64,000 bases of DNA from assembly GCA_030141605.1 (NCBI GenBank), contig JAQGDQ010000910.1, positions 1 to 64,000 of the forward strand. The letters run 5' to 3'. A model generated the notes under the pieces. The model made no database searches. It was not told where the DNA came from and saw only the letters and a list, made by a program, of their open reading frames with translations. How positions within the stretch are numbered: position 1 is the stretch's first letter; the number at the start of each line of letters is the position of its first letter. Positions 2,274 through 63,456 of the stretch are shown here, one piece after another. Origin of the DNA: Tubiluchus corallicola. Lineage: Eukaryota; Animalia; Priapulida. The position numbers and the translations under genes are program-made.

Positions 2274-3180
<907 letters not shown>

Positions 3181-4910: not shown

Positions 4911-5029
4911 AGCACACACGCACACACACAGACATCAACTATACTGCGTCCAAGTGCATTATGTAATACAGTTATTACGCTATGTATGATGTAATGAATA
5001 CGTTTATATAATAATAATTATTATTATTA

Positions 5030-5900: not shown

Positions 5901-6611
5901 AAATGTACTCAACAAACAAGAATTACGAATTAATTAATTAAGGACGCTAATTAATTTAGGAAAAATAACCGTAGCAACAGTTTCTACAGACGCGATGTCA
6001 ATATAGAGTGATCATGTATAAGTGTCCCAACCCAAATACATGGCCCATTATAATTATTACAACGTATTTGTGGCGAACACGAATTTGTAGTAATTTTCTG
6101 CCTTACATAAGCTGTCATTTTGTCAAATAAATTTCGAAGATTTATTGACACTTTGCGCCCGTTTCTTAAAAGGATTACGCCATCTTGGGTCAACCATTTT
6201 AAAGCTCAAATCGAAACACAATGGCCGAAGCAGGCGTGAAAACTGGGGCAAGTAATTCAACCGGTGTATGTATAGTACAGCACCATTGATTGCAGAATGA
6301 CACGCTACGTAACATATTCTAGGTCACACAACTGTGCAGTGAGTAGTAATGAAGGCTGAGCCACGTCAGCTTTGAGTAATACAGTAAACACTTTCTTGCT
6401 TTAAAGGGTACGAAAAGAAAATTTTACAATATGTAGATCCCAAAGAACTTTCCATAGAACGTTAGACTTCTTAGGATCACGCATACCTGTTTGAAAGTAT
6501 CCATGTTTGAAAATAACGGGTACATTTTAGCAAACACGACGCACTAACATTCATTATTAAAGAGAAAATATCTAAAATGATTGACCAGAAGCATGCAAAA
6601 TTTATGTCTAA

Positions 6612-8955
6612 ATGAATGGTTAGGGTCAGAAGAATGAGTGAATGAAAGAATGGTTAGGATCAGAAGAATGAGTGAATGAAAGAATGGTTAGGGTCAGAAG
6701 AAATGAGTGAATGAAAGAATGGTTAGGATCAGAAGAAATGAGTGAATGAAAGAATGGTTAGGATCAGAAGAAATGAGTGAATGAAAGAATGGTTAGGGTC
6801 AGAAGAAATGAGTGAATGAAAGAATGGTTAGGGTCAGAAGAAATGAGTGAATGAAAGAATGGTTAGGATCAGAAGAAATGAGTGAATGAAAGAATGGTTA
6901 GGATCAGAAGAAATGAGTGAATGAAAGAATGGTTAGGATCAGAAGAAATGATGGAATGAAAGAACGGTTAGGATCAGAAGAAATGAGTGAATGAAAGAAC
7001 GGTTAGGATCAGAAGAAATGAGTGAATGAAAGAATGGTTAGGATCAGAAGAAATGAGTGAATGAAAGAATGGTTAGGATCAGAAGAAATGAGTGAATGAA
7101 AGAATGGTTAGGGTCAGAAGAAATGAGTGAATGAAAGAATGGTTAGGGTGAGAAGAAATGATGGAATGAAAGAACGGTTAGGATCAGAAGAAATGAGTGA
7201 ATGAAAGAATGGTTAGGATCAGAAGAAATGAGTGAATGAAAGAATGGTTAGGATCAGAAGAAATGATGGAATGAAAGAACGGTTAGGATCAGAAGAAATG
7301 AGTGAATGAAAGAACGGTTAGGATCAGAAGAAATGAGTGAATGAAAGAATGGTTAGGATCAGAAGAAATGAGTGAATGAAAGAATGGTTAGGATCAGAAG
7401 AAATGAGTGAATGAAAGAACGGTTAGGATCAGAAGAAATGAGTGAATGAAAGAATGGTTAGGATCAGAAGAAATGAGTGAATGAAAGAACGGTTAGGATC
7501 AGAAGAAATGAGTGAATGAAAGAATGGTTAGGGTCAGAAGAAATGAGTGAATGAAAGAATGGTTAGGGTGAGAAGAAATGAGTGAATGAAAGAATGGTTA
7601 GGATCAGAAGAAATGAGTGAATGAAAGAACGGTTAGGATCAGAAGAAATGAGTGAATGAAAGAATGGTTAGGGTCAGAAGAAATGAGTGAATGAAAGAAC
7701 GGTTAGGGTGAGAAGAAATGAGTGAATGAAAGAATGGTTAGGGTCAGAAGAAATGAGTGAATGAAAAAATGGTTAGGATCAGAAGAAATGAGTGAATGAA
7801 AGAATGGTTAGGGTCAGAAGAAATGAGTGAATGAAAGAATGGTTAGGATCAGAAGAAATGAGCGAATGAAAGAACGGTTAGGATCAGAAGAAATGAGTGA
7901 ATGAAAGAACGGTTAGGATCAGAAGAAATGAGTGAATGAAAGAATGGTTAGGATCAGAAGAAATGAGTGAATGAAAGAATGGTTAGGATCAGAAGAAATG
8001 AGTGAATGAAAGAATGGTTAGGGTCAGAAGAAATGAGTGAATGAAAGAATGGTTAGGGTGAGAAGAAATGATGGAATGAAAGAACGGTTAGGATCAGAAG
8101 AAATGAGTGAATGAAAGAATGGTTAGGATCAGAAGAAATGAGTGAATGAAAGAATGGTTAGGATCAGAAGAAATGATGGAATGAAAGAACGGTTAGGATC
8201 AGAAGAAATGAGTGAATGAAAGAACGGTTAGGATCAGAAGAAATGAGTGAATGAAAGAATGGTTAGGATCAGAAGAAATGAGTGAATGAAAGAATGGTTA
8301 GGATCAGAAGAAATGAGTGAATGAAAGAACGGTTAGGATCAGAAGAAATGAGTGAATGAAAGAATGGTTAGGATCAGAAGAAATGAGTGAATGAAAGAAT
8401 GGTTAGTGTGAGAAGAAATGAGTGAATGAAAGAACGGTTATGGTCAGAAGAAATGATGGAATGAAAGAATGGTTAGGGTCAGAAGAAATGAGCGAATGAA
8501 AGAACGGTTAGGATCAGAAGAAATGAGTGAATGAAAGAATGGTTAGGATCAGAAGAAATGATGGAATGAAAGAATGGTTAGGATCAGAAGAAATGAGTGA
8601 ATGAAAGAATGGTTAGGATCAGAAGAAATGAGTGAATGAAAGAATGGTTAGGATCAGAAGAAATGATGGAATGAAAGAACGGTTAGGGTCAGAAGAAATG
8701 AGTGAATGAAAGAATGGTTAGGGACAGAAGAAATGATGGAATGAAAGAAAGTGAATGAAAGAATGGTTAGGATCAGAAGAAATGAGTGAAGGAAAGAATG
8801 GTTAGGATCAGAAGAAATGAGTGAATGAAAGAATGGTTAGGGACAGAAGAAATGATGGAATGAAAGAAAGTGAATGAAAGAATGGTTAGGATCAGAAGAA
8901 ATGAGTGAAGGAAAGAATGGTTAGAGTCAGAAGAAATGAGTGAAGGAAAGAATCG
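6612..8955. repeat. Purine-rich minisatellite, 35-bp unit, ~67 copies
   Basis: Unit agaagaaatgagtgaatgaaagaatggttaggatc. Some variants contain GGTTAGGG. Confidence 0.97.
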
Positions 8956-8970
8956 TAAATGGATAAGAAG

Positions 8971-12659: not shown

Positions 12660-13577
12660 CCTGAAAACCTCTATACTGTGGCAGCATAAATGAACTTTAT
12701 GCTTTATAGACAGCCTGAAAACCTCTATACTCTGGTAGCATAAATGAACTTTATGCTTTATAGACAGCCTGAAAACCTCTATACTGCGGCAGCATAAATG
12801 AACTTTATGCTTTATAGACAGCCTGAAAACCTCTATACTCTGGTAGCATAAATGAACTTTATGCTTTATAGACAGCCTGAAAACCTCTATACTCTGGTAG
12901 CATAAATGAACTTTATGCTTTATAGACAGCCTGAAAACCTCTATAGTGTGACAGCATAAATTAACGTTATGCTTTATAGACAGCGTGAAAACCTCTATAC
13001 TGCGGCAGCATAAATGAACTTTATGCTTTATAGACAGCCTGAAAACCTCTATACTGCGGCAGCATAAATGAACTTTATGCTTTATAGACAGCCTGAAAAC
13101 CTCTATACTGCGGCAGCATAAATGAACTTTATGCTTTATAGACAGCGTGAAAACCTCTATACTGAGGCAGCATAAATGAACTTTATGCTTTATAGACAGC
13201 GTGAAAACCTCTATACTCTGGTAGTATAAATGAACTTTATGCTTTATAGACAGCCTGAAAACCTCTATACTCTGGTAGCATAAATGAACTTTATGCTTTA
13301 TAGACAGCCTGAAAACCTCTATACTGCGGCAGCATAAATGAACTTTATGCTTTATAGACAGCCTGAAAACCTCTATACTGCGGCAGCATAGATTAACTTT
13401 ATGCTTTATAGACAGCGTGAAAACCTCTATACTGCGGCAGCATAAATGAACTTTATGCTTTATAGACAGCCTGAAAACCTCTATACTGTGGCAGCATAAA
13501 TGAAGTTTATGCTTTATAGACAGCCTGAAAACCTCTATCCTGCGGCAGCATAAATGAACTTTATGCTTTATAGACAG
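12660..13577. repeat. Minisatellite, 54-bp unit x17, each unit with an internal hairpin
   Basis: Unit cctgaaaacctctatactgcggcagcataaatgaactttatgctttatagacag. Confidence 0.95.
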
Positions 13578-13869
13578 TCTTCTTTGTGTAATTCTTTGTG
13601 AAATGATAACAGCAAAATAAACCCAACACGTGCTAAGAGAGTCTCTTCCTTTAATTATATTCTACTCTACTAAATTCCATGCTTCCCATCACACGACCCT
13701 CCCTTTTTTACTGACTTGATAAGCATTTTACAATCGGTTAGCAGTGTCGCAACATCGGTATCTATTTTTGCATCAGACCGCGTAAAACGAAATCCAGATG
13801 TGAGATTTTCAGCTAAAATAATCTAAACAGACCCGCAAAAACTATTCGCAGAAACCAGGCTAAAACAGG

Positions 13870-29300: not shown

Positions 29301-32300
29301 GTCCGATTATTTTTTCAAACTTTACCTGATATTATCTGAACTTGTTTCAAATGACCTGTCGTCAAAATGGCTGCATCTAACCGTCATTGCGGGAGTTTGA
29401 ATTTACAAGTTTTATACAGCGTTATTGTCAACGCAAGCCTAATATGCAAAAAGGTAGTATGTAAGTGATATAAAATTTCAAGACTATTTTTAAGCTTTAT
29501 GTAAGTTGAGGGTTTTCTTGTGCTTTAATGGAAAGCAGGGTGATTTATAATTTCCTTTTCCATTTACACTCTAACACCTATAATAATGCTACAGCATCTC
29601 TGGTAAGTAATTAACAGGTTGTTGGCATCCTTCTGTCTCAGAAGACAATGGAGTGTGCCCCAAGAGAGTCAGTTATTGATCACATTGATGGAGCTGCAGA
29701 GTCGACTGTCTTCAGGGTACACGCCTGGGCAAGGTGTATGGAGATCCTGAGTTGCCCAGACAACAGGATCCCCCTCTCTTCTTCCCTGGTGTAAGCGGAG
29801 CGATACGTTTGTCACCAGGTTGGCTGCCGGAGTCAGTGAGCATGCTGCACTGGTCCGCCTTCGGGGCTCCACTCCTGATTTGGAAGGTTTACTCCTCTAA
29901 ACATGGCCATTGGGTCACTTGACCTCCTCCGCCCTCTAGCCATTGGCTGTTTGTGCAGCTCCCCTGCCTAGTGTCGAGATACAGTGTTGGCATCCTGCAA
30001 GTGTACAGCACCTGCTAGTCCTGGGCGGCTACCCATCCAAGTACTAACCAGGCTCTACGTTGCTTAACTTCGGTGATCAGACGCGAACCGGTGTTTTCAA
30101 CGTGATTTGGCCGTAGCTAATTAACAGGTTGAAAAACTTATTTAAATGCAGGTGAGTCGTCAATTCCAGTTTCTATTGGGTTAGCTACGAAATGGACAGC
30201 TTGATCGCCTAGCCGTGTAACTCTGACCACTTGTTGACCACTTATCTGCAAACAGGACAGAAAACATGGTCCAAATATTCCACAAAAAGTGAACTGTGAC
30301 ATTAAAATTTAAGCAACGTAAATGAAAGACGAAGTTCAGAGATGGAAAAAATTCCCACTTACAATCAGAAATTAAGGTTTCCCATATTGAAAGACGAAGT
30401 TCAGAGATGGAAAAAATTCCCACTTACAATCAGAAATTAAGGTTTCCCATAATGAAAGACGAAGTTCAGAGATGGAAAAAATTCTCACTTGCAATCAGAA
30501 ATTAAGGTTTCCCATATTGAAAGACGAAGTTCAGAGATGGAAAAAATTCTCACTTGCAATCAGAAATTAAGGTTTCCCATATTGAAAGACGAAGTTCAGA
30601 GATGGAAAAAATTCTCACTTACAATCAGAAATTAAGGTTTCCCATATTGAAAGACGAAGTTCAGAGATGGAAAAAATTCCCACTTACTATCAGAAATATG
30701 ATTTCCCATATTAATTATCATTTATCAACAATCATGCTAGTACAACATCCTTCAAAAACTGATTCAAGATTATTATCAGTTAGTATGTCAGGGAAGCATT
30801 TACTAATCCAATGATACCTTTTCAGTAAGGATGATATTCTCCATTTGATAGCTATAGGGATGCCACTCTGTCTTGAGCCAAAGTCGGGAGACGAGAGCTA
30901 GCTAGGTGACCTGTGAGCTCCCCCAATGAGACCCGGGAGGGAGCCTTGGGAACAACTGTTTCCTGCATTTTAGATGTTTCACGAGGAACTTCTTCAGAAA
31001 TTAAAATCAATAAATTCAGCCTTTAAGGTAGCTGGGTGGTCGAGTGGTTTAGATTTCGGACTGCAATCACGCGGTCTTGAGTTCGAAACTAGCGGCTGCA
31101 AATTCCAGGACATTTGCTCTATTCACTATTTGTGTGTTGCGTCTTTACCTGTATTGTTGTAAGTGTCGTCGCTAAATAGATGTTAGTGCTGTTGTTGTCT
31201 GTTAAATGAGCAACGGTGAATAAATAAATCTTGTCTTTAGTATAAATCTTGATGTTTGACTCCAAAAAGCCGTAAAAATCTAAAACGTACAAAAGTGCAA
31301 GCAGCCTGTACATCAATTTTTCCAGTTTCTTCCCAGTCACATTTCTCACATTTTATGAGGTACCAGTGGTGGCAACCCTAGACACCGGGCCCAAATCGGG
31401 AGTGCTGGCAACCCTAGACCCCGGGCCCAATCAGGAGTGGTGGCAACCCTAGACACCGGGTCCAATCAGGAGTGGTGGCAACCCTAGACACCGGGCCCAA
31501 ATCGGGAGTGCTGGCAACCCTAGACCCCGGGCCCAAATCAGGAGCGGTGGCAACCCTAGACACCGGGCCCAATCAGGAGTGGTGGCAACCCTAGACACCG
31601 GGTCCAATCAGGAGTGGTGGCAACCCTAGACACCGGGTCCAATCAGGAGTGGTAGCAACCCTAGACACCGGGTCCAATCAGGAGTGGTGGCAACCCTAGA
31701 CACCGGGTCCAATCAGGAGTGGTGGCAACCCTAGATACCGGGTCCAATCAGGAGTGGTGGCAACCCTAGACACCGGGTCCAATCAGGAGTGGTGACAACC
31801 CTAGACACCGGGTCCAATCAGGAGTGGTGGCAACCCTAGATACCGGGTCCAATCAGGAGTGGTGGCAACCCTAGACACCGGGCCCAATCAGGAGTGGTAG
31901 CAACCCTAGACACCGGGCCCAATCAGGAGTGGTAGCAACCCTAGACACCGGGCCCAAATCGGGAGTGCTGGCAACCCTAGACCCCGGGCCCAAATCAGGA
32001 GCGGTGGCAACCCTAGACACCGGGCCCAATCAGGAGTGGTGGCAACCCTAGATACCGGGTCCAATCAGGAGTGGTGACAACCCTAGATACCGGGTCCAAT
32101 CAGGAGTGGTGACAACCCTAGATACCGGGTCCAATCAGGAGTGGTGACAACCCTAGATACCGGGTCCAATCAGGAGTGGTAGCAACCCTAGACACCGGGC
32201 CCAAATCAGGAGTGGTAGCAACCCTAGACACCGGGCCCAATCAGGAGTGGTGGCAACCCTAGATAACTACTAAGTGTTGAAGTGCATAAAATTGGTCCAT

Positions 32301-41153: not shown

Positions 41154-43100
41154 TTAGTCCAGCTCCTCGTACTTGCTTTTCTTTTTCTTCTTTTTCTCTG
41201 ATTTCGGCGTAGACACGTCAGTTTCCCCGTGTCCGTCCTTGTGACGTTTCTCACCTCCTTCAGGTGTAACCGCATCGCCGGCTGAAAGTAGTCCACTGGA
41301 ATCGAGATGCTTTTCTTTATGTCTCTTCTCTGATTTTGGAGTCTCATTTGAGTCTGCAGCTTCCTTGTGTTTTTCTTTATGCTTTTTCTTCGACTTCGGG
41401 GTCGTCACGTCAACAGCATCATGAGACTCGTTCAACTTGTCATGTTTTTCTTTATGCTTCTTCTTTGACTTCGGGGTCGTCACGTCGACAGGATCGTGAG
41501 ACTCGTTCAACTCCGCATGCTTTTCTTTATGTTTTTTCTTTTTATGTACCTTGCTGGCAGAAGCGTCCGTACTCGTGTCCAACATACCCTTCTCAACAGT
41601 TGCCGTCTCGCTTTCCGACTGCTTGTGTTTCTTCTTTTTCTTCACCTTTTTCTCCGGCGCTTCGGCAATCACGTCGGAAGTTGTTTCCGTCTTGATTTTT
41701 GAAACCGGAGCAACATTTTGCTCGGCGCTACTCGAGCTGCTCGAGGACGACTTCCTTTTTCTTTTAACGCCAGTAGTCGCTTGGCCGTCTTCTGCTGCTT
41801 CCGATTTTGGCTCTGCTGCCGATTTTGGCTCCTCATCCTCTTTCTTAATTGCCGTGCTGTAATACTCGTACGTATCAGTCCAATCTTTGGGTGTTTTTTC
41901 ATTGGGTTTACCGTGAGCATCTAATAGACCTTCCTTTACCATTTTCTTCTTCATGGTAGCTTTTGGTCCAAGACCCCACTTGCGGGGGTACGTGTCACGC
42001 TCCATGATAACTCGTTTGATTTTTGCTACCACTCCGTGGTCACATGTGCACATTACGGCTGTAGTCATGAGGGCTACGGCCAGGGCGATAGCCTCACCTT
42101 TAGTTGTGACGATGACGATTTCTTGATTTAACTCTATCCCGTCCTCATATCGGAGAACACCAGGAAGCATAATCTTAGCTCCATAACACACGGCATTCAC
42201 CGCACTGTCTTTCATTATGATTCGCTTGTGAGAAGTCAGCAAAGCTTCTAATGGGTTGATTACTCGACGGAGGTACGTTTCGTCTTTGTGGTTATCGTAC
42301 AGCCACTGTGCGTCCATAATGTCGTGCATTGTCACTAGATTATCTTTCTCGGAAACAATGCCGGAGCGCACTCGTCGGAGCTCTTGCATTTGTCCACCCA
42401 CTCCCATTAACAATCCCAGATGTACACACAATGTTCGTACGTACGTTCCCGCTTCGCAGCTCATCCAAAAAACGCCCATATTTTGCTCACTGTTGAACTG
42501 CAGTAATTTGCTTTCATAAATAGTTCGTACACGCAGCTGCCGCTTCACTGCCGCGATGATGGGAGGTCTTTGAAACAGTGCACCAGTCAATGTTTCAACT
42601 GCTTGTGCAACTTTAGCTTCGCTTTCTACAGGACTGTGAAATCGCACTATAGACACATACTCTTTGCCTGCACTTTGCTGAGATTTTACAAGACGGGTGG
42701 CTCTTTCGATACATACAATTAAACAACCCGTAACCTTCGGATCCAAAGTTCCACTATGGCCAGTTTTTTGTACTCTCAATATTCTTTTTATCCACGAAAC
42801 AACTTCGTGAGAAGAAGGGTTTGCTGGTTTGTCCAAATTACAAAAACCACTTTTAACGTATTCAGAAATATCTCGTTTGAGAGGAGAACATCCAAAGGGT
42901 AGCGGAGTGTAATGCATAGATCTGACGTTTAACTTATCAAAATTTTTCAACAATAACGGCCACTGCGACGTAGAAAGTGTTACAGGCTTTGTCGAGGGCT
43001 CGACTTCAAACTTTCCTTTGTGTTGAAGTTCACCTAAATCATCTTTACTGGTTTTATTTGACAATTGAGAACGCGGCGATAAAACCACGTTATTCGCCAT
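41154..43100 (-). CDS. DKC1: Dyskerin / H/ACA RNP pseudouridine synthase (Cbf5), 648 aa, intronless CDS
   Basis: [39 protein letters not shown] (catalytic Asp), [14 protein letters not shown] domain and [18 protein letters not shown], then a Lys-rich tail. Confidence 0.98.
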
Positions 43101-43959
43101 CTCGCCTCATCGAAAAACTCCCAGTGTAAAGACGCACTGGAGTAAACTTGCCCACATTTTACACGGCAACCAGGCTTGAACCGGCCAGCCAAAAACAGGC
43201 AACCATAACGCCAATTTTGCTTCTCAGTGACTGCACAAACAAATAACATTTTCAGAATATATAAAAATGGCAAAAAGATTCGCTTTACACACAAGCCTTA
43301 TTGTTGGAAGCGGAGTAAAACACTAGCCGAAGTAGGACAATTACTGATCTAGTAAAGCGGCAACTACTAAATTTGGATTGGATATCAATCTTTTTGAAGT
43401 AAAATAAGTCCGCTTTTTAGGCAATTCCAACATCTGCTTAAGGTATACCTATTTTTTATTTTGTCTCGCTTCACAGACAGGTGATAAGTTTCACTACCTC
43501 TTGAACAAATAATTGTTTTCCACTAACGGTAGCTAGTAAGTAACGAGTAAACAGCCTAGTAAGCTATGTGCCCTACATGGTTTCTCTCTTTAAAGCATTG
43601 GGTTCTTTAGGGTTAATATTATGTTGATATTAACGGTGCTAATAATAATGATGATGATAATATTATTGTAAAAATGCATTTGTAAATTGTCAATGACTAT
43701 CCATCGTTATTATAAAATTTCTTTTTTTTAAACAAATTTAGTTTTTTGTTTTATTATATAATATTTATCAATTCTCGACAGAAATCTTCAATGCCCTACT
43801 TTGGCTTCCCATGTATGACACTGCTTTTTTGCGCATGCATTTTAGCAGAAGTGTCCTACTTCAGCTAGTGGCATACTCTATGCCTACACTTACCTTTTTT
43901 GAAAAAGTTTGAAAACTGGTAACTCATTTGTTTCCTGAAAATCCTTATGCAACCAGCAC

Positions 43960-44550
43960 ATTAAAAGTCATTCGCAGGACATTACATCCATGTCATCAAC
44001 ATATCAAAGAAAGAGTATATCAAGCCCTGGTCAGATCCAAACTAAAATAAGGCATTGCAGTCTGGAACATATACACAATCACTGACATCAAGCGCATTGA
44101 GCAAGTCCAGTGAAATGCAGCACTTAGTACGAAATGAATATACCAGAAATGCTGATCTATCTAGGGTGATCTCCGAACTTGGGTGGGAAACTAGAGATTA
44201 GACGACCACAAATGATACTAAATGCCTTTCATGATATAGTGGATCACAGGGTAGGTATAAATTTACCAACTTACATCACACCATCTCTCAAAGATAACAA
44301 CAAATTTGTTCATCCATCAGCAGGAGTCAATATTTATTTATACTCCTACCCCAGAGTAATACGTTTGTGGAACAAACTTACACTGGATATTAGAGAAATC
44401 ACTTCTAGAAATCACTTTCGAATACTAGGTGCCTCTGCTGTTTCTACCATGATGGTACCATCCCACATAACCTGTCTGTAAATCTAACTGTGGTTTTGGT
44501 CCACAACCACCATGTTTGTTTTGCTTGTTTCACCTCTTTGTCATAACCTC
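43960..44550 (+). mobile_element. Decayed CR1/L2-like LINE 3' fragment
   Basis: Interrupted translation RTLHPCHQHIKERVYQALVRSKLK*GIAVWNIYT..DIKRIEQVQ*NA, and YSYPRVIRLWNKL. Confidence 0.7.
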
Positions 44551-45003
44551 TAATACCATCACCAGTTAGCAAGTTGCAGCCTGTATGCTAACCATGTGCA
44601 CGCCAAGATTTCTAGTATGTCGTCAGAGACTTTTTAGAAATATATTATTCAAGACTTCAAAAACATCTGCTTTGACAAACAATTTAATATAATTTTTATT
44701 CATTTTAGAAATATTACATTACAAAATATAATGATATTCAGCATCTACTTCATGACAAGCATTACATTTACTCTCATTCTAACTTCATTATCATCAATTA
44801 TCGCATTAAAAGGCTGATACCGTCGTATTGTATTTATGGACCACAACGTTGTTTTGGTGCGGACTGTAAATTAGCATTTTGGTGCGGGGCAAAACCGGTG
44901 TAAGGTTCCATATTTGCGTTAACGGCGCCGTTGAAGGTTAACATCGTGAAAATTTAAAAGTAAACGAGTTTAAGCTTTGTGTAAGTGCTGTAAAAACGAA
45001 ATC

Positions 45004-47136
45004 ATGACGGATCCTGCACGGACTTTAAGGGGCTTAGATCCCAAGTTTAAAGATTATACTCCGATGGATCGTGGTTTGTCTGCGATGGCAGAGAATCGTT
45101 GGTCATTTGAAGTTGCTTGGGAAGTGGCCAATAAAGTTGGTGGCATATACACAGTGATACGCACCAAAGCAGCTGTTAGTATGGAAGAGTTAGGAGATCG
45201 CTATTGCCTTATAGGACCGTATAATGATGCTTGTGTTAGGACAGAAGTTGAAATTATTCAACCAGATGACACTATAATGCTCAAATGTATTAGAAAAATG
45301 AATGATTACGGGTTTAAGTGTTTCTATGGTCGCTGGCTCATCGATGGCTATCCTCAAGTGGTGCTTTTTGATATCGGTTCTGCAGCTTGGAAACTTGATG
45401 AATGGAAGAAGGAATTTTGGGAAGCAGCGAAAGTCGGTATTCCGTGGCAGGATAGGGAGTCGAATGATGCCATTATTTTTGGCTTTCTAGTTGCCGCCTT
45501 TCTTGGCGAGTTCAGCGCTCGTTCTCAGGATGAAACGGAGTCGCGACCGTTAATCACTGCCCATTTTCACGAGTGGCTATCCAGTGTGGGACTTATCATG
45601 TCTCGTGCAAGACGATACGATGTAGCTACAATCTTCACAACTCACGCTACGCTACTGGGACGCTATCTCTGTGCCGGATCGGCGGATTTCTACAATCACA
45701 TAAGCTCCTTTGATTTAGACAAGGAAGCGGGCGAGCGCGGTATTTATCATCGCTATTGCATGGAGCGTGCCGCGTCGCACGTTTGTCACCAGTTTACCAC
45801 GGTTAGCGACATTACGGGATACGAAGCCGAACATTTGCTGCAGAGAAAGCCCGATATAATCACGCCAAACGGTCTGAATGTCATAAAGTTTGCCGCTCTT
45901 CACGAGTTTCAGAATCTGCATGCTATTTCAAAGGATAAAATAAACGACTTTATTAGAGGTCATTTTTACGGGCACCACAATTTTAATTTGGACAAAACTA
46001 TCTACTTCTTCATTGCTGGAAGATACGAGTTTACGAACAAAGGGGCGGACGTTTTCATAGAATCTTTGTCTAGATTGAATCACTATCTCAAATCGGCCAG
46101 TAGCGAAGTAACGGTCATTGCTTTTCTTATCTTTCCTGCGAGAACAAATAATTTCAACGTCGAATCGCTACGAGGGCAGGCCATCGTCAAGTCCTTGAAA
46201 GATACCGTTCAGAGCATCAAAGAGAAGATCGGTCACCGCATGTTTGATATTTGCTTGAGCGGTTCCGTGCCGACGGGCGAAGACATCTTGAAGACCGAGG
46301 ATGTCGTGAAGTTGAAGCGCTGTATGTTTGCGGCGCAGAGGAGCTCGCTTCCGCCAATATGCACGCATAATATGGCCGACGATTTGAACGATCCGGTGTT
46401 GAGCAACATTCGCCGTTGCCAGATGTTTAACAACAGAAACGACAGGGTCAAAGTTGTTTTCCACCCGGAGTTCTTGTCGTCCACTAGTCCGCTGCTAGGT
46501 CTGGATTATGAAGAGTTTGTCAGGGGTTGTCATCTGGGAGTCTTCCCGTCGTATTACGAACCCTGGGGTTACACGCCCGCCGAATGTACCGTCATGGGCA
46601 TTCCGTCGATATCCACAAACTTGTCCGGATTCGGATGCTTCATGCAGGAGCACGTGGCCGATCCGCAAAGCTACGGAATCTACATCGTCGACCGGCGTTT
46701 CAAGACGTCCGAGGAATCCATCCGCCAGATGGCGCAGATGATGTACGACTTCACTTGTCTGAGCCGCCGTCAGCGCATCATACAGAGGAACCGCACGGAG
46801 CGACTCTCCGAGCTGCTGGATTGGCAGAATCTCGGCACGTACTACCGACGCGTTCGCAGGATGGCGCTGAAGGAAGTCTATCCGGAGTTTTTCCTGGAGG
46901 AAAGCGATCGGATATCGGTCACCAGCTTGAGATACAAGTTTCCACGCCCGCCGTCGGCGCTCCCGTCCCCGACGAGCTCAAGAACGTCGACGCCTCCGCC
47001 GTCGGATGGAGAGAATAATGAAGAAGAAGAAGATGAAGACGATTCTGGAGGTTTGGTGTTCAAGCCGTCAACGACGCCAGATGTTGATGAGGTTTATGAA
47101 AATGAAATTATGTCGGCTAGAGATGATACTAATTAA
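45004..47136 (+). CDS. GYS: Glycogen synthase (GT3 family), 710 aa from the first ATG, intronless CDS
   Basis: [52 protein letters not shown] and [15 protein letters not shown], plus the C-terminal SxxxS ladder. The ORF-track start at 44977 is not an ATG. Confidence 0.98.
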
Positions 47137-47286
47137 TTAGCTAGCCCCGTTAGCATCATTATTTGCATGTAGATTAAGTAGGGATGTTTATCGTGTTTTT
47201 AAATTTATTCTGCTCTCTGTTCACTTTACACAACTTGTCATCACACTGTAGCCTCCGTTGTTTACCACATGCACAAAAATGTTATT

Positions 47287-47778
47287 CTTCTTCTTCCCAG
47301 CTTTCCCCTATGTGGGGTCGCCGTTGTGAATGAGTCTTCTCCACGCATTCCTGTGGTTGACCATCTCTTCATTTATGTCTTCCCTTCCCACATGATCCTC
47401 ACTGACTCTTCTTTTCAGGTGTCCATACCATCGCAATCTTGTGAGGCTTCCACTACTTTTACTGTTCCTCTGATATTATCATTTCTAATTTTATCTCTTC
47501 TTGTTATTCCCACCATCCATCTCAACATCCTCATCTCCACCACACCCATTTTCTTCTCTTCGGTCTTCTTTAGAGAAGCTGCTTCCAGCCCATAGATTAG
47601 AGCGGGTCTGACCACTTCTTTGTGGACTTTACCTTTAAGTCTCACCGACTCATTCATAGGAGGTTTTGGCGCAGTTTTTACAGGCGGATGCCCTTCTTGA
47701 CCCTAACCCTCCCTATTTATCCGGGCTTGGGACCGGCACTGAGTTGGGCTGGCTTGCCCCCCCCCCAGTAGCTAGGTT
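47287..47778 (-). mobile_element. Internally deleted RTE-clade retroelement (492 bp): twister 5' head, ORF C-terminal remnant, (GAA)n tail
   Basis: 18-bp TSD atgcacaaaaatgttatt at 47269-47286 and 47779-47796. Peptide KGKVHKEVVRPALIYGLE...EMRMLRWMVGITRRDKIRN. Ends gcgaccccacatagggg...gaagaagaag. Confidence 0.92.
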
Positions 47779-47779
47779 A
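47707..47779 (-). ncRNA. Twister self-cleaving ribozyme (P1 type with a P3 hairpin; 5' strand of P1 absent)
   Basis: U^AA-CCUA-GC-U-ACUG(G9)CAAGCCAGCCCAACU-CAGU-GCCGGUCCCAAGCCCGGAUAAA-UAGG-GAGGG. P2 = CCUA/UAGG, P3 is closed by ACUG/CAGU, P4 = CCGG/CCGG, and both pseudoknots (CCC:GGG, GC:GC) can form. Confidence 0.85.
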
Positions 47780-48684
47780 TGCACAAAAATGTTATTAAGA
47801 GATTTTTTACCGGGATATTTAATTGTAAACTGATTGTCAACTTAGCTTGCCATAGATTACCACTCCGAATGTAATTTAGTCAGAATTAAGCTACCTCATT
47901 TTTGCTAATATAGAAAGGTGCAGGTTGAAAAATTAAATGGTTTACTTACAGTCTAGGTAGTATTTAAGTATGTATTTTTGCGGTACTCATTTAGGAAAAC
48001 TAAATACAGTTTTTGCAGTACATAATGTAGTGCTTATGTAGTAGCATGGATTTTGTACCACGACGTACGCGAACGTTTGCTATAGATTACAGCTACTTTC
48101 GTAGGTATTTTGTGCAACTGTGGTTGAATCGATGCTCAAAAATATGTGTCAAAGGCCCTCTACTGGCCTAACTTGAGAACTGTCTGTCGTGTGTGCTAGT
48201 AGATTGTCTGATGGTACGTAGATATGTTAAAGAAGAGTTTTCTTTACCGTATTTAACCGATTGACCTATCTTTGAACTTATTAAATTATCCGCTTGCATT
48301 TAGCTTAAATTCTTGTGAGATTAAAGTAGCAGTATTCTGTAATGTTTGTTGTGTAAGCCCGGTAGATGGTACTGTAGTGCAAGCAAAATGAAGTTGCAAT
48401 GCTATTTATCAACACCATTAGTGAACAGATTAAAAATAAGGTACAAAAGTGTTAAGTATGCTGTTGTTACTAGCTGAATGATTATGCTGCGTGTTGATAA
48501 GTTTTGTTTTATAAACTTACATGTTTAGCGTTACATTTTTGTCATTTTCGTTACCTTGTTAAGTATCTTGTGCTAAGTTATACGATAATCACATTTTTTG
48601 TGCAAACTTAAATTAATACTAGAACTTCTAAGCGCTATTACTTGTTAAGTTTGTGTTCTGTGTAATAAAGATACGAATGTAGTT

Positions 48685-49860: not shown

Positions 49861-50896
49861 AAATGGGGTTTCTATGAGTGTACTCGCTTAACCTCTAATC
49901 ATGACACCAACACAGTAAAATGCATTCAAAATATTAAATAATTTTCTCAGGAAGACGTTCAGCTAGAAACTTGGTATTCCACCTTTGTTAATGGATAAAT
50001 GTTACATAGTGGATTGTTGAAGGAGCAAAATTTTGATTAATTACCCAGTTTATTGTTAATTATTGGTTAATTCAGTTAATGAGATGTGTCCAATCTAGTC
50101 ATAACCATTTTCCTTGAGTAAGCTTTGCTTTTCAATTATAGATCCTGTCTTGCTAAAATGAAAAAATGTTGATATTAATGCAATAATTAATTCTTAACAA
50201 ATGACAGTCGGACAAGTGCAGCACATAATCAACACGTTACTTTTTACAATAAAATCAAGATTTTTGAAGTGAATTACTGTAGTGTATTTTGTTTTCGTTA
50301 CTAGATGGAGCCACCATGAAACAATGCGCTCCGTTGTACACGTTGCAGGAAACAGTTATTTTTTTGCATGCGTGCTTTGCTTTGTGCAAGTAATAATAAT
50401 TGTTATCTTGAGTTAGGAGGTAAGTGTTAACGCCGAGTACGCCGTGGTTACTTTGCTTGTAAAGAATTGTCTTTGGTGGTTCATTCCGTTTACGTTTTAC
50501 ATGCATGCCGGTCGTAAAGTTGCAACGTGGTATCATACTATACACGGTAGATTGATGATTATCGAATTCTCGATCTGCTTAAATAATAAATTATGACGTA
50601 CAATAAATTTTATGGGTTGTCTGATTTCACTTGGTCATAATTATGATTAAAGGGTGTAAACTAGCGTTGTAAATATAGTCAATGTTCACATTGTTCGGTA
50701 GGCTTACTCTGCAGGGTGATATGGACTAGATTATATAGATTTTATTCAGAACAGTTTATGGTGCTCCCTATAAAAATAATAGTATCTTTTCACTTTCAGT
50801 AGATAGTGCAGCGTAAGAAGTTTATAACGGCACTATAAGACATGCTGATGTAGATGAGATCACAAAATTTGTAGTGCTGCTGTAGAATAAAGAAAA

Positions 50897-51520
50897 ATGT
50901 ATAAAAAGAACTTCGTCTGCGTGTTATTCTGTGCTTGCTTATGGCTCTCTAATGGGAATTTTCTAAACGATGTTTCGAACACGGTTCACAAAGTTTCGAA
51001 AGTCGTAAACCGTGGTATTAACACGTTCACCGGCAGTGATTACAGAAGTCTTAAAACATTTAGTTGGAAAAACTGCGGAAGTCAAGCCGATCCAATCGTC
51101 TTGAAGAATATCACCGTTTCGCCTGATCCCGTGAAGATTCCCGGCGTTGCCAAGGTCTCGTTTGCGGGTCTTGTTGGCATGACCCTGGATAGTCCGTTGA
51201 AAATGGAACTGGAGGTCAAGAAAAAGGAAATTATCTGGATAGAAATACCTTGCATTGACGATGTGGGATCTTGTACGTATGACGACATTTGCACCAAACT
51301 ACCCCCGCCTACATGCCCACCCCCATTTGAGAAGTACGGCATTCCATGTCAATGTCCAGTCAAGGCAAACACGTACAACTTGCCGATGAGTGATATAGAA
51401 ATCCCGGATGCAGGCATCCCGTCTTTCCTGGAGGATGGTGATTTTTGGATTCGGGCAAAGTTTAGCATGAATGGGAAGCAGATGGGGTGCTATGAGTTTA
51501 ACTTCTCTGTGACAAGTTAA
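50897..51520 (+). CDS. GM2A: Ganglioside GM2 activator-like secreted ML-domain lipid-binding protein, 207 aa, intronless CDS
   Basis: Signal peptide, then FSWKNCG..DPIVLKNITVSPDPVKIPG, WIEIPCIDDVGSCTYDDIC, GIPCQCP and GDFWIRAK...MGCY. AATAAA at 51567. Possible 5' UTR intron from GTAAGT (50420) to tttcag (50799). Confidence 0.93.
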   Translation: MYKKNFVCVLFCACLWLSNGNFLNDVSNTVHKVSKVVNRGINTFTGSDYRSLKTFSWKNCGSQADPIVLKNITVSPDPVKIPGVAKVSFAGLVGMTLDSPLKMELEVKKKEIIWIEIPCIDDVGSCTYDDICTKLPPPTCPPPFEKYGIPCQCPVKANTYNLPMSDIEIPDAGIPSFLEDGDFWIRAKFSMNGKQMGCYEFNFSVTS

Positions 51521-56608: not shown

Positions 56609-58642
56609 TTAATTTCTTTCTTTTGATAACAAGGAGTGAAATATTGTTAATAAAACAATGATCACGCATAGCAACAATGCGCTAAAAACTGCGAGAAAAA
56701 CAAATCCAAACGGTGGATTTCGTTTGGCTCGTTGGGCGTGTGCAAGTCCCGCGAAGCGAGGGAAATTTCCTTTGTTTTCCAGGGTGACACGTGCCACGGC
56801 ATAACAACAACGTTCCACGCTGTAGGCGCCATGTTGATTGACGCAAGCTCTGATTCCGACCACCATGTTGACTTCCGGTACCGCTTTTAGTGCAATTTCT
56901 CCTTGATCGTTGATGTACAAGATGTCTTTATAACTGAGAATCGAGTAATTCAATGCTAGTGAGATATTTTTTGGATGAACGGCTTTAACAGCACCTACAG
57001 TTGAACCAATCTCTCCTTTGGTCGTCATCAAGTATACCTCCTGCAGAAACCGAGGATTCCTCGTCTTTGTTCTCTTCACAGAAACATTAATCTCTGTCTG
57101 TCCTTGTAGATTTCTATAATGTCTAAAGGCTTTTAACGTAATTTTATACGAATCTTTGCTATTCGCGTCCAGTGATTGTGCAATAACAAAATCAAGATAC
57201 GATCTGTGATAAGATTTGAGGTGAACACAGCCAGAGTTGACAGTTTGGAAATTTTGCACCGGAGTACCCGATTCTGTTTCTAGAACGTAGGACATGCTGA
57301 CCCTCGTGTACCAATATTTAATAGGTACTGTCAGTAATGCTGTACCAACTGGTTCATTTTCGTAAACATTTACGGAATACGACTTCTTCTCGAAGTCTAG
57401 TATATCTTGTCGTACTTTTATCGATAACAGAGCTCTGTCGTAATGTTCACGATTCTCGTGTTCTGTAGCTTGTATGAGGACGTAATAGTTGGCACTTCGT
57501 GGAAGGGACTGAGCAACAGTTATCTCACCGTTGACTTCGTCTATCTCAAACTTACCATCGGTTTGATCTGGAAAAGCAAAACTATAATATATGACGGTTC
57601 CCAGCTCCTCCAGGTCGCGGGCTGATATGGGACCTGGGTCAATTTCCAGGAGTTCTCCCACTGACGTTTCGCCAACCACGTCTGCTTTGTAAACGCCGGA
57701 CACCGCCGGTCTTTTGAACGCAGGATTTTCGTTATTTATGTCTCTGACTATAACTTCAAGTGTAGTATGGATGTATTGCTCTGGCGACACGGTTTCGTAA
57801 TAAATGAATCGATGAATCACGAGGTTTATCTCATGGTATGTCAATTTTCTATGGAACATCTTTTTCTTTACGTAGATATCGTAATGTGTTCTCGTTTGTC
57901 CATCTTTTTGTTCAAAATATTCATCCAAACTGCATGTTATGTGCAGAGGTGGTGGAAAGCGAGGTTCCAGGCACACTTTAAACTCAGTTGCATACGTGAA
58001 TGAATCCTTATCAGCTACTTCAAATGAAAACACTTTCGTTCCAACCAAAGTGCCTTCGTCTATTTCCAGAGGTGGGTAGGGTGACCCAACAAAAGTGGGC
58101 AGGAACATATCGACAGGGTGAATCCGGATCTTGAGAGTGATCAGATGAGCCTCGTTGGGATCGTATCTCGTACCTCTTCGTATTCGGGCACAGCATGCAA
58201 ATTCAATTATCGCACTAGGTGCGCGATTATCCAGCTCTTCACTTCTATACTTTGCAAAATACTTGCCCACAGATAGTGCCAATCTCAACTTTTGGTTTCT
58301 GTTCTCAAATTCATAATCTCGACCAAAACGATACTTGGGCCAGGTGAACAATTGCCAATCCATGCGACTGTCGGCCACCTCGTGGCGGTAAATGTAAGCA
58401 ATTTTGTTAAACAGGGGATCAGCGACGATACCAGTTTTTATCTTATCACCAGGTTGTAGTTTTTCACTAATATCTATGCTATAATAGTAATGATTGTATC
58501 TTCCATCTTGTATATAGCAAGCTCTTGGCGGTTTGCCAAAGATGTCCTTTGCTAGATTTTCTTGAAGTTTACTGATACAAATAGCAAAAAGATAGATGTA
58601 ATGGCTAATGGCTTTCTTCTCAAAATGTTGTGTCACCTCCAT
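56609..58642 (-). CDS. Cadherin-repeat single-pass membrane protein, 677 aa, intronless ORF
   Basis: Cadherin motifs PVDMFLPTF, EIDEGTLVGT, VADKD, VRDINNENPAF, SARDLE, FEIDEVNGEITV and VNVYENEPVGT. C-terminal hydrophobic helix FVFLAVFSALLLCVIIVLLTIF. Confidence 0.85.
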   Translation of the reverse strand: MEVTQHFEKKAISHYIYLFAICISKLQENLAKDIFGKPPRACYIQDGRYNHYYYSIDISEKLQPGDKIKTGIVADPLFNKIAYIYRHEVADSRMDWQLFTWPKYRFGRDYEFENRNQKLRLALSVGKYFAKYRSEELDNRAPSAIIEFACCARIRRGTRYDPNEAHLITLKIRIHPVDMFLPTFVGSPYPPLEIDEGTLVGTKVFSFEVADKDSFTYATEFKVCLEPRFPPPLHITCSLDEYFEQKDGQTRTHYDIYVKKKMFHRKLTYHEINLVIHRFIYYETVSPEQYIHTTLEVIVRDINNENPAFKRPAVSGVYKADVVGETSVGELLEIDPGPISARDLEELGTVIYYSFAFPDQTDGKFEIDEVNGEITVAQSLPRSANYYVLIQATEHENREHYDRALLSIKVRQDILDFEKKSYSVNVYENEPVGTALLTVPIKYWYTRVSMSYVLETESGTPVQNFQTVNSGCVHLKSYHRSYLDFVIAQSLDANSKDSYKITLKAFRHYRNLQGQTEINVSVKRTKTRNPRFLQEVYLMTTKGEIGSTVGAVKAVHPKNISLALNYSILSYKDILYINDQGEIALKAVPEVNMVVGIRACVNQHGAYSVERCCYAVARVTLENKGNFPRFAGLAHAQRAKRNPPFGFVFLAVFSALLLCVIIVLLTIFHSLLSKERN

Positions 58643-58797
58643 GATGTTTCGTTATCTGTTCGTATGTTTCCATGGAAACAAAAGTCGTTCCTATGGAAGC
58701 ATCTCAAGTAAAGTATATCTAACTGATTCAAATGAGTAACTTATATTTGTTGCTGCAACTTTTGTTGCTACTGATGCAGTTGCTGCTATCCTTTCAC

Positions 58798-59912
<1,115 letters not shown>

Positions 59913-60423
59913 CTTACTTTGATTAACCTCAGTAGACTAAATTGGTTCATACAACGTTAGCGGAAACTGGCTGAAATTCTGAATTACTGGACATAGCGTC
60001 CAGTGGTCTGGTAGTCAAGTAATAGGCCTACTGCTTACTGATACACTAAAGGTTTTAATATGCACAGAGGAACAGCTAAAAGTATAATCACGTTAGTAAG
60101 CTATGTAAAAGCAATTTCAACTAAAGACTTGGTAAAGTACTTCTGGTTAATGACAGATATGACGTCATTTTATTAAAATATCATTCATAATCCTGTTCTT
60201 CAATTCAATGTTCATGTATTATTCATTGTTATTTATAGACAACTTCAACAAGTTTTAACGTGGTTTATTAACAACTATTTATAGCCCCTTCGCTTTAAAT
60301 TCTGTAGATCCGTAGTTATTTATTACCTTTTAGAATAATTTTTTTTGGTTTGTCCTATTTTTGGCTAAAGTTTACAATTCTCCACTACACAAGAAATTAG
60401 TTCGTGTATATGGATTAGTGATT

Positions 60424-60980: not shown

Positions 60981-61172
60981 TTATTTTTTATTCATATAAT
61001 CATAATTATATTCTTGATAGATAGTCTGACTGACTGACTGACTGACTGATTGAATTTATTTATGATATTTGAAGCTGATGTTTCATTTCACAGGATGCTT
61101 TAAAACTATAACAAAATTACAAGTGAATTCTAATAAACGCATGATATAATTTTAAAAAATTTAATTTAAATA

Positions 61173-63456
61173 AAAGAACAAGCCGTTCAGTACGTTGGGT
61201 TTATTTTACTGTTATCACTTAAACTGCCTGTGGTGTGTTAGAGGAAATAATAAATCACTCCGTCTGTTGGGTTTATTTTACTGTTATCACTTAAAGTGTT
61301 TGTGGTGTGTTAGAGGAAAGAACAAGTCGCTCAGTACGTTGGGTTTATTTTACTGTTATCACTTAAACTGTTTGTGGTGTGCTAAAAGAAAGAACAAGTC
61401 GTTCAGTACGTTGGTTTTTTTTTACTGTTATCACTTAAACTGTTTGTGGTGTGGTAGAGGAAAGAACAAGTCGCTCAGTACGTTGGGTTTATTTTACTGT
61501 TATCACTTAAACTGTTTGTGGTGTGCTAAAGGAAAGAACAAGTCACTCAGTACGTTGGGTTTATTTTACTGTTATCAGTTAAACTGTTTGTGGTGTGCTA
61601 GAGGAAAGAACAAGTCACTCAGTACGTTTGGTTTATTTTACTGTTATCACTTAAACTGTTTGTGGTGTGCCAGAGGAAAGAACAAGTCACTCAGTACGTT
61701 GGGTTTATTTTACTGTTATCACTTAAACTGTTTGTGGTGTGCTAAAGGAAAGAACAAGTCACTCAGTACGTTGGGTTTATTTTACTGTTATCACTTAAAC
61801 TGTTTGTGGTGTGCTAAAGGAAAGAACAAGTCACTCAGTACGTTGGGTTTATTTTACTGTTATCACTTAAACTGTTTGTGGTGTGCTAAAGGAAGGAACA
61901 AGTCACTCAGTACGTTGGGTTTATTTTACTGTTATCACTAAAACTGTTTGTGGTGTGCTAAAGGAAAGAACAAGTCGCTCAGTATGCTGGGTTTATTTTA
62001 CTGTTATCACTTAAACTGTTTGTGGTGTGCTAGAGGAAAGAACAAGTCGCTCAGTACGTTGGGTTTATTTTACTGTTATCACTTAAACTGTTTGTGGTGT
62101 GCTAAAGGAAAGAACAAGTCACTCAGTACGTTGGGTTTATTTTACTGTTATCAGTTAAACTGCTTGTGGTGTGCTAGAGGAAAGAACAAGTCACTCAGTA
62201 CGTTTGGTTTATTTTACTGTTATCACTTAAACTGTTTGTGGTGTGCCAGAGGAAAGAACAAGTCACTCAGTACGTTGGGTTTATGTTACTGTTATCACTT
62301 AAACTGTTTGTGGTGTGCTAGAGGAAAGAACAAGTCACTCAGTACGTTGGGTTTATTTTACTGTTATCACTTAAACTGTTTGTGATGTGCTAGAGGAAAG
62401 AACAAGTCACTCAGTACGTTGGGTTTATTTTACTATTATCACTTAAACTGTTTGTGGTGTGCTAGAGGAAGAACAAATCACACAGTACGTTGGGTTTATT
62501 TAACTGTTATCACTTAAACTGTTTGTGGTGTGCTAAAGGAAAGAACAGGTCACTCAGTACGTTGGGCATATTTTACTGTTATCACTTAAACGGTTTGTGG
62601 TGTGCTAGAGGAAAGAACAAGTCACTCAGTACGTTGGGTTTATTTTACTGTTATCACTTAAACTGTTTGTGGTGTGCTGGAGGAAAGAACAAGTCACTCC
62701 ATATGTTGGGTTTATTTTACTGTTATCACTTAAACTGTTTGTGGTGTGCTAGAGGAAAGAACAAGTCACTCAGTACGTTGGGCATATTTTACTGTTATCA
62801 CTTAAACTGTTTGTGGTGTGCTAGAGGAAAGAACAAGTCACTCAGTACGTTGGGTTTATTTTACTGTTATCACTTAAACTGTTTGTGGTGTGCTAGAGGA
62901 AAGAACAAATCACACAGTATGTTGGGTTTATTTTACTGTCATCACTTAAACTGTTTGTGGTGTGCTAAAGGAAAGAACAAGTCACTCAGTATGTTGGGTT
63001 TATTTTACTGTCATCACTTAAACTGTTTGTGGTGTGCTAAAGGAAAGAACAAGTCACTCAGTATGTTGGGTTTATTTTACTGTCATCACTTAAACTGTTT
63101 GTGGTGTGCTAGAGGAAAGAACAAGTCACTCAGTATGTTGGGTTTGTTTTACTGTTATCACTTAAACTGTTTGTGGTGTGCTAAAGGAAAGAACAAGTCG
63201 CTCAGTACGTTGGGCTTATTTTACTGTTATCACTTAAACTGTTTGTGGTGTGCTAAAGGAAAGAACAAATCACACAGTATGTTGGGCTTATTTTACTGTT
63301 ATCACTTAAACTGTTTGTGGTGTGCTAAAGGAGTGAACAAATTACACAGTATGTTGGGTTTATTTTACTGTTATCACTTAAACTGTTTGTGGTGTGCTAA
63401 AGGAAAGAACAAGTCGCTCAGTACGTTGGGCTTATTTTGCTGTTATCACTTAAACT
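61173..63456. repeat. 72-bp satellite, array 2 (~32 copies)
   Basis: Same unit as 51641-52130. The ORF track shows a 24-aa periodicity. Confidence 0.97.

What the first reader, a model, noticed from the sequence alone, without database searches (positions are those of the whole stretch)
47287..47796. Twister-ribozyme-headed mini-retroelement whose 5' end sits exactly at the ribozyme cleavage site
Seen: a 492-bp minus-strand insert flanked by a perfect 18-bp TSD. It reads AACCUAGCUACUG...CAGUGCCGGUCCCAAGCCCGGAUAAAUAGGGAGGG, ~60 nt more leader, a direct jump to the last part of an RTE ORF, then a (GAA)n tail. P2 (CCUA/UAGG), P3, P4 and both pseudoknots can pair. Established: twister ribozymes cleave U^A in the UAA of loop L1, and are reported in the 5' UTRs of some RTE-clade elements. 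The core GCCGGUCCCAAGCCCGGAUAAA matches the rice twister as I recall it. Inference: the insert starts at the A just 3' of the cut and lacks the 5' P1 strand, so it looks like a complete cDNA of a self-cleaved RNA. This would be a non-autonomous, SINE-like family that uses a ribozyme instead of a Pol III promoter to define its 5' end and borrows RTE reverse transcriptase.
Basis: partly seen in the sequence, partly recalled or inferred. Interest (0 to 1): 0.88.

Follow-up and report, generated by a model that had tools for sequence, protein, structure and literature searches.

The report
Twister-headed miniature RTE retroposon family
This 492-base insert is one copy of an abundant, internally deleted jumping-gene family that starts exactly where a twister-type ribozyme is predicted to cut itself and likely borrows its copying enzyme from a full-length relative; each ingredient is already published, though I found no report of this exact combination.

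Summary
Window 47287-47778 (minus strand, 492 nt) lies between perfect 18-nt repeats. It starts at the AA of a twister-P1 match (51.2 bits, E 3.9e-10, below Rfam's 67.2 cut-off). An RTE-type leader follows, then the last ~150 codons of an endonuclease/RT ORF with two further deletions (16 and 90 nt), then a GAA tail.

The family test passes. Assembled contigs from two samples pile up thousands-fold over the element, with no dip at the main junction and many different flanks at both ends. My rough bounds are about 120 to 6,800 copies. Cleavage, expression and a full-length partner are not shown, and the share of copies that reach the cut site could not be counted.

It is not new in kind. Twisters at RTE 5' ends with the duplication beside the AA are published (PMC8501958). 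So are bipartite non-autonomous RTEs (PMC5786205) and ribozyme-headed deleted elements (PMC3414825, PMC3185411). Six paper searches found no twister-headed non-autonomous family. 'SINE-like' is a loose label: it has no Pol III head and keeps its parent's own 5' end.

The parts
47779..47796 (-). Upstream copy of the target-site duplication; its last bases supply the U before the predicted cut and the 5' strand of P1 (2 of 4 pairs)
47703..47778 (-). Twister-type (P1, 'T-variant') ribozyme from the AA at the predicted cut: P2 47776-73/47715-12, P3 47770-65/47742-37, P4 47736-34/47723-21
   Evidence: Rfam RF03160 51.2 bits, E 3.9e-10, gathering 67.2; pairing table
47654..47702 (-). RTE-type 5' leader after the ribozyme
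   Evidence: element nt 15-114 is 80% identical over 101 nt to the head of the endonuclease/RT element in L085, and 83% over 94 nt to L087; alignment
47647..47653 (-). Likely start of the parent's ORF (ATG at 47653), cut off by the main deletion at about 47647/47646
   Evidence: 2 contigs in run X3 leave the element at 47647 and, by my hand translation, continue as MSQNQRSELNAR; 3 of 18 long homologues begin MS-x(4-9)-NAR; by-eye match
47443..47646 (-). First ORF remnant (residues ~815-884 of the 962-aa homologue P0004), ending at a 16-nt frameshifting deletion at 47443/47442
47308..47442 (-). Second and third ORF remnants, joined by a 90-nt deletion at about 47381-47376, ending at the TAG stop (47310-47308)
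   Evidence: partner-type loose ends at 47378 and 47381
47287..47307 (-). Short 3' UTR and (GAA)n tail
   Evidence: element nt 411-492 is 88% identical to the 3' end in L061
47269..47286 (-). Downstream copy of the target-site duplication
44974..47136 (+). Context: single-ORF glycogen synthase gene; the insert lies 150 nt after its stop codon, in the opposite orientation
   Evidence: (PF05693, 1119.8 bits)

Best explanation
It is one copy of a multi-copy, internally deleted retroposon that keeps the ribozyme-bearing 5' end and the 3' end of a likely RTE-clade LINE; the twister is predicted to cut a read-through transcript just before the first A, and the cut RNA is likely copied into new sites by the enzyme of a full-length partner. 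Shown: the anatomy, the duplication, the shared main junction, many different flanks, and loss of the endonuclease and RT coding regions. Inferred steps: (1) a host or internal Pol II transcript runs into a source copy; (2) the twister core folds and cleaves, with flanking DNA giving a weak P1; (3) the partner's protein recognises the retained 3' end and primes reverse transcription at a nick, helped by AA overlap with the GAA tail; (4) complete cDNAs start at the AA, directly beside the new duplication, which becomes the next P1. The three deletions likely arose in the founder lineage before amplification.
For: Family: summed contig depth over the element is 19,120-81,074 (X1) and 594,031-904,989 (X2), against about 6-19 and 94-353 in the flanks. 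Depth does not dip at the main junction: 905,890 and 872,106 in X2, 78,368 and 83,985 in X3. Only 119 of 1773 (X2) and 47 of 286 (X3) contigs lie partly off the 231-nt stretch. Five distinct listed contigs bridge the main junction with 31 or more letters on each side and carry 3-13 differences. One listed contig bridges each smaller junction (X2 record 10, X4 record 25).

Ends: 17-26 contigs per run leave at 47285 into unlike flanks (X1, X2, X3). At the 5' end 7 groups of 4-33 contigs go loose at 47764-66; in 4 of 7 the consensus still reads through the AACC start before agreement collapses. 8 more go loose exactly at 47778, and depth is 233 or less from 47784.

Parentage: homologues are 75-80% identical at best, including a 962-aa protein with only endonuclease and RT Pfam domains. 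6 of 8 outside loci found by the twister core have an endonuclease N-terminus just downstream. L087 shows an 18-nt repeat abutting the AA in the same way.

Literature: cleavage gives a 5'-AA end whatever base precedes it (PMC8501958), and P1 flaws did not lower cleavage in a large screen (PMC11662667).
Against: No cleavage assay and no run on record as RNA. The Rfam score is under the curated cut-off, and the minimum-energy fold competes with the twister fold. Depth falls from 826,271 to 11,601 between 47736 and 47775 in X2: I read this as alignments clipping at the G-run, but frequent 5' truncation would look the same. At least one contig looks truncated inside the ribozyme (X3 record 11). 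The loose-end tables were cut (339 and 67 rows hidden). The partner is seen only as short loose ends in 1-6 contigs per place. X1, X2 and X4 are one sample, possibly the window's own source, so only X3 is independent. No tree with named RTE references was built.
Confidence: 0.8

Rival explanations
1. The family is real, but its 5' end is set by an internal Pol II promoter that starts at this A; the ribozyme is an inherited relic that no longer needs to cut.
For: Once a source copy begins at the AA, initiation there would give the same ends as cleavage. P1 is 2 of 4 and the minimum-energy fold is not the twister fold. LINE 5' extremities can drive transcription (PMC5786205), and Pr77 of L1Tc/NARTc is discussed as both ribozyme and possible initiator (PMC3185411 passages).
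Against: The core is intact in this copy. No majority change inside 47703-47745 is among the rows listed (three places: 47631, 47660, 47697). The majority base at 47770 gives a C-G pair where this copy has U-G (loose-end consensus). Initiation exactly at the scissile A would be a coincidence.
Confidence: 0.13
2. A one-off internally deleted RTE copy made by template jumping during a single insertion; not a family.
For: Only one copy in the 64-kb window; no whole genome was available to count copies.
Against: No depth dip at the main junction in two samples, several distinct bridging contigs, and at least eight places where nearly all depth differs from this copy.
Confidence: 0.02
3. The copies spread as DNA (satellite, segmental duplication, or cargo of a DNA transposon) rather than through RNA.
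For: High copy number alone does not show retroposition; the window is rich in tandem arrays.
Against: Depth returns to single-copy level at both duplication borders, and loose ends run into many unlike flanks. An 18-nt duplication, a GAA tail and no terminal inverted repeat among 3 inverted pairs found.
Confidence: 0.03
4. A Pol III SINE with an RTE tail.
For: Short, non-coding for RT, RTE-derived 3' end.
Against: No tRNA by aragorn, no strict B box anywhere, no A box in the head (one A-like match at 47542 inside the ORF remnant); no tRNA, 5S or 7SL Rfam match over the element; a 5' ribozyme would cut off any head placed upstream.
Confidence: 0.02

Closest known systems
Perere-3 RTE element of Schistosoma mansoni with T-variant twisters (Liu et al. 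2021, PMC8501958)
   Same: Twister at the 5' end of an RTE element; duplication directly beside the AA; duplication supplies the 5' strand of P1; same core sequence.
   Different: Perere-3 as described is autonomous (endonuclease + RT) with a GTAA tail, and cleavage was shown. This element has lost about 815-840 codons and has a GAA tail; cleavage is untested.
Bipartite non-autonomous RTEs: RTESINE1/2, WALLSI3, MAR4_MD, RTE-N2_Lch, Bov-A (Kojima 2018, PMC5786205)
   Same: 5' end plus 3' end of an RTE joined by internal deletion; no RNA-gene head; the paper suggests a 5' ribozyme as the reason such elements keep the 5' end.
   Different: The passages read name no twister and cite HDV-like ribozymes. 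This element keeps ~340 nt of 3' coding sequence with two extra deletions (RTE-N2_Lch keeps 70 bp of 3' end).
R2 and R2/R1 SIDEs of Drosophila (Eickbush and Eickbush 2012, PMC3414825)
   Same: Ribozyme plus LINE 3' end, dependent on co-transcription and on a partner's enzyme; later deletions are proposed to shorten them.
   Different: R2 ribozyme (HDV-like), fixed 28S rDNA site, described as rare. This one has a twister, dispersed sites and hundreds or more copies.
NARTc/RIME of trypanosomes (Sanchez-Luque et al. 2011, PMC3185411)
   Same: Non-autonomous element that shares its parent's 5' ribozyme; dispersed.
   Different: HDV-like ribozyme with cleavage shown; L1Tc/ingi parent rather than RTE.
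Retrozymes (PMC7761336)
   Same: Non-coding retroelements with a self-cleaving ribozyme and no own promoter.
   Different: Hammerheads in LTRs or tandem repeats, circular RNA intermediates. Here a single 5' twister and a LINE tail. The same review already states that truncated but active twisters are conserved at RTE 5' ends (unpublished there).

Membership tests
Rfam twister-P1 (RF03160) | Score at or above the curated cut-off of 67.2 bits | tested here: not met
   51.2 bits, E 3.9e-10; all 9 RTE-head hits in L081-L088 also fall short, 33.9-63.9 bits. Filed as twister-type/T-variant, not as a curated member.
Twister ribozyme (T-variant sense of PMC8501958) | AA at L1, P2, P4, L4 and both pseudoknot base sets conserved | tested here: met
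   P2 shows paired changes against L085 and L082 (read by eye)
Twister ribozyme (T-variant sense of PMC8501958) | Twister fold is the favoured structure | tested here: inconclusive
   forced fold -24.1 against -27.3 kcal/mol; z 0.13; pseudoknots not modelled
Twister ribozyme (T-variant sense of PMC8501958) | Self-cleavage giving a 5'-AA end | not testable with these tools
   needs an assay
Bipartite non-autonomous RTE (Kojima 2018) | 5' end derived from the LINE's own 5' end | tested here: met
   80% over 101 nt to the head of L085, 83% over 94 nt to L087
Bipartite non-autonomous RTE (Kojima 2018) | 3' end derived from the LINE's 3' end, with tail | tested here: met
Bipartite non-autonomous RTE (Kojima 2018) | No endonuclease or RT coding capacity | tested here: met
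   remnants map to residues 815-961 of P0004, after its RT domain (544-778)
Bipartite non-autonomous RTE (Kojima 2018) | Many dispersed copies share the same deletion | tested here: met
   (two samples; main junction strongly, two small junctions by one bridging contig each plus depth)
Bipartite non-autonomous RTE (Kojima 2018) | Autonomous partner in the same genome | tested here: inconclusive
   only short undeleted-type loose ends at 47378, 47381, 47643 and 47647 in 1-6 contigs each
RTE clade | Placement by RT phylogeny with named references | not tested
   assignment rests on single-ORF endonuclease+RT homologues with no other Pfam domain, short 3' UTR and microsatellite tail; clade traits recalled
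Pol III SINE (SINE1/2/3) | tRNA, 5S or 7SL head with internal promoter boxes | tested here: not met
R2 SIDE | HDV-like ribozyme and insertion in 28S rDNA | tested here: not met
   twister match, insertion behind a glycogen synthase gene
Retrozyme | Hammerhead ribozymes in LTRs or tandem repeats | tested here: not met
   no hammerhead match and no LTR-length repeat in 46800-48300

The most novel reading that the evidence does not exclude
The first documented twister-headed non-autonomous retroposon, one that far outnumbers its parent LINE and in which every insertion site writes a new P1 strand. The family would then be a natural library of hundreds to thousands of ribozyme variants in which target DNA decides which copies can become source elements. 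It would also scatter transcript-cutting switches that genes tolerate only in antisense, as here behind glycogen synthase.
Probability: 0.35. Interest if true: 0.55.

Novelty: new member of a known kind. Interest (0 to 1): 0.33.

Why it matters
Kojima (PMC5786205) left open why only a few LINE clades, all with 5' ribozymes, yield bipartite non-autonomous elements. Liu et al. (PMC8501958) proposed that the insertion site tunes the ribozyme through P1. A young, high-copy, 492-nt family with an intact twister core and no coding burden is a convenient test bed for both ideas: every copy has the same core and a different P1. It also predicts an orientation bias inside host transcripts. It does not change what is known about ribozyme chemistry or retrotransposition.

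Tried and rejected
No whole genome is held, so copies could not be tabulated; sequencing-run contigs were used instead. The window has no second copy.

No RNA holder was listed, so nothing is claimed on expression. Run X3 (kind unknown) shows 3'-skewed depth and no cover beyond 47848; this could be RNA but is not used as evidence. X5 and X6 (same species label, other studies) held only 33-35 nt of twister core with other downstream sequence, in 2 and 1 contigs; I cannot tell whether they are the same organism, so their lack of the family is not used. No empty-site joint was among the 15 of 16 joints shown; contigs with 3, 15 and 17 differences run from the gene into the element's 3' end, so the insertion seems to be on several haplotypes, but contigs cannot show absence.

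Metagenome relatives were uninformative on ribozymes: 0 of 80 loci had the twister core at up to 3 substitutions, and 0 of the 15 of them scanned had an Rfam match at E<=0.01. Most matches are 42-62% identical (one 72%) and many are partial. The twister pattern gave 0 matches in viral contigs. No outside locus (0 of 8) showed a twister joined directly to an RTE C-terminus.

I first read loose ends at 47443/47444 as partner sequence and withdrew that: they are a 1-nt variant of the mini element. A weak match of the leader to a homologue's N-terminus (E 0.077) suggested VRLK microhomology at the main junction; the loose end at 47647 argues against it. The ATG at 47657 opens an 80-codon frame; I have no evidence that it is used. 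Three look-ups of earlier findings returned nothing.

Full report
What is there. Read on the minus strand, the insert runs from 47778 to 47287, 492 nt. It lies between two identical 18-nt repeats at 47779-47796 and 47269-47286. No such pair arose in 1000 shuffles of the 1.5-kb region, and about 3e-5 are expected. The host is an invertebrate animal: the neighbouring glycogen synthase has its best hit in Priapulus caudatus at 76%. The insert sits 150 nt after that gene's stop codon, antisense.

The ribozyme. Rfam twister-P1 matches 47783-47703 over the whole model at 51.2 bits, E 3.9e-10 (1.7e-8 on the whole window), under the curated 67.2. The shortfall fits a broken P1 (2 of 4 pairs) and a long P3; P2, P3 and P4 pair fully, and the L1, L4 and pseudoknot bases equal the consensus. 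The U of UAA is the last base of the duplication and the insert starts at the next A. Against an easy reading, the minimum-energy fold is an alternative 3.2 kcal/mol lower than the forced twister fold and is no more stable than shuffles (z 0.13). These programs ignore pseudoknots, so the result is inconclusive.

The body. The 72-residue frame at 47657-47442 has 102 homologues among 130 candidates, the best 75-80% identical, including full-length endonuclease+RT proteins. P0004 has only those two domain types. The element keeps residues 815-961 of P0004 with two gaps, which are 16 and 90 nt against the related 3' end in L061. The leader is RTE-derived too. A twister-core pattern found 8 loci in prokaryotic assemblies (likely animal or plant contamination, my inference), all with twister-P1 matches of 33.9-63.9 bits. 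6 of 8 have an endonuclease N-terminus just downstream, and L085 and L087 match the element's head at 80-83%. L087 also has an 18-nt repeat abutting the AA. Two X3 contigs leave the element at 47647 and continue, by hand translation, like the N-termini of close homologues, while contigs leaving at 47643 carry the ORF sequence expected just upstream of the remnant. The main junction is therefore at about 47647/47646 and removes roughly 815-840 codons.

Is it a family? No genome was held. Six runs were listed, four holding the stretch, from two studies. On 46500-48600, 2941, 3816, 1396 and 2617 contigs were laid from X1-X4, of which 154, 222, 159 and 75 fit only partly. Summed depth over the element is thousands of times the flank depth. 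At finer scale there is no dip at the main junction in X2 or X3. At eight listed places nearly all depth differs from this copy, so the window copy is about 2% from the majority. Undeleted-type ends appear in only 1-6 contigs per place. X1, X2 and X4 are one sample and may be the window's source; X3 is the independent one.

Do copies start at the cut? Depth is at single-copy level from 47784 on. Seven groups of 4-33 contigs lose alignment at 47764-66, where this copy has a G-run; in 4 of 7 the consensus still reads through the AACC start and then turns heterogeneous, and 8 more contigs go loose at exactly 47778. So many independent insertions share the start. The fraction is unknown: depth declines over 47744-47775, the tables were cut, and at least one contig looks truncated within the ribozyme.

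Mechanism. Most likely (0.8) a read-through transcript is cut by the twister, the partner RTE's protein binds the retained 3' end and reverse-transcribes it at a new nick, and full-length copies begin at the AA beside a fresh duplication that becomes the next P1. Cleavage, transcription and the partner's action are inferred. The main rival (0.13) is initiation at the same A from an internal promoter. One-off deletion, DNA-level spread and Pol III SINE are each 0.03 or less.

What is known. PMC8501958 (abstract, parts 1, 3, 4 and 5 of 9, passages) shows twisters upstream of all 113 full-length Perere-3 copies, duplications next to the AA that supply P1, and cleavage in vitro and in yeast. PMC7761336 (passages) states that truncated but active twisters are conserved at RTE 5' ends. 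PMC5786205 (parts 1-2 of 5, passages, section 23) lists bipartite non-autonomous RTEs and links their retained 5' end to ribozymes. PMC3414825 (abstract and Discussion) and PMC3185411 (passages) describe ribozyme-headed deleted elements of R2 and L1Tc. PMC11662667 (passages) reports tolerance of P1 flaws. PMC6765202 and PMC13725137 (passages) add nothing specific. Searches listed no paper on a twister-headed non-autonomous family; I judged most listed papers from title and abstract start only. No supplements were read, and the T-variant lists in PMC8501958 could include such elements (18.6% had no conserved domain downstream). Repbase and Dfam were not searchable.

Verdict. A real and well-supported feature, correctly read by the first stage. 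It is a new member of a known kind, a bipartite non-autonomous RTE, with a ribozyme type not yet reported for that kind in the papers I could search. Interest 0.33; 0.55 if the insertion-site control of source copies proves true.

Noticed in passing
window 44974-47136 (+), 41154-43106 (-), 50891-51520 (+), 56609-58651 (-): Four long uninterrupted ORFs: glycogen synthase, dyskerin/DKC1, an ML-domain protein and a cadherin-domain protein. Animal glycogen synthase and DKC1 usually have many introns (recalled). All 14 of 14 listed coding differences in glycogen synthase are synonymous, so it looks functional. Possible lineage-wide intron loss or retrocopy replacement.
   Followed up: partly
window 30000-30118 (-): Isolated 5S rRNA match, 84.7 bits, followed by further sequence rather than a T-run; could be a pseudogene or the head of a 5S-derived SINE.
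   Followed up: no
window 47705-47739, loose ends in runs X2, X3, X5, X6: Contigs share only the twister core and continue with a different leader: at least one other twister-headed family exists in these runs.
   Followed up: no
window 4504-4989 (+) and 44170-44481 (+): Frames that resemble 3' ends of other non-LTR elements, the first with a GAA run; resemblance recalled, and the first had no Pfam match.
   Followed up: partly
L081-L088: Short contigs in eight bacterial assemblies carry twister-headed RTE-like sequence; likely eukaryotic contamination. L081 and L084 have start contexts like those quoted for Perere-3.
   Followed up: partly
L087 281-299 and 1037-1055: A 19-nt repeat follows an RTE 3' end and precedes a twister-headed RTE 5' end, in inverted order to a normal insertion; tandem unit or assembly loop.
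   Followed up: partly
window 6611-8970, 12660-13580, 31365-32265, 61167-63456: Long minisatellite arrays at 91-95% identity, plus large simple-repeat tracts near 2200-3200 and 58700-59950.
   Followed up: no
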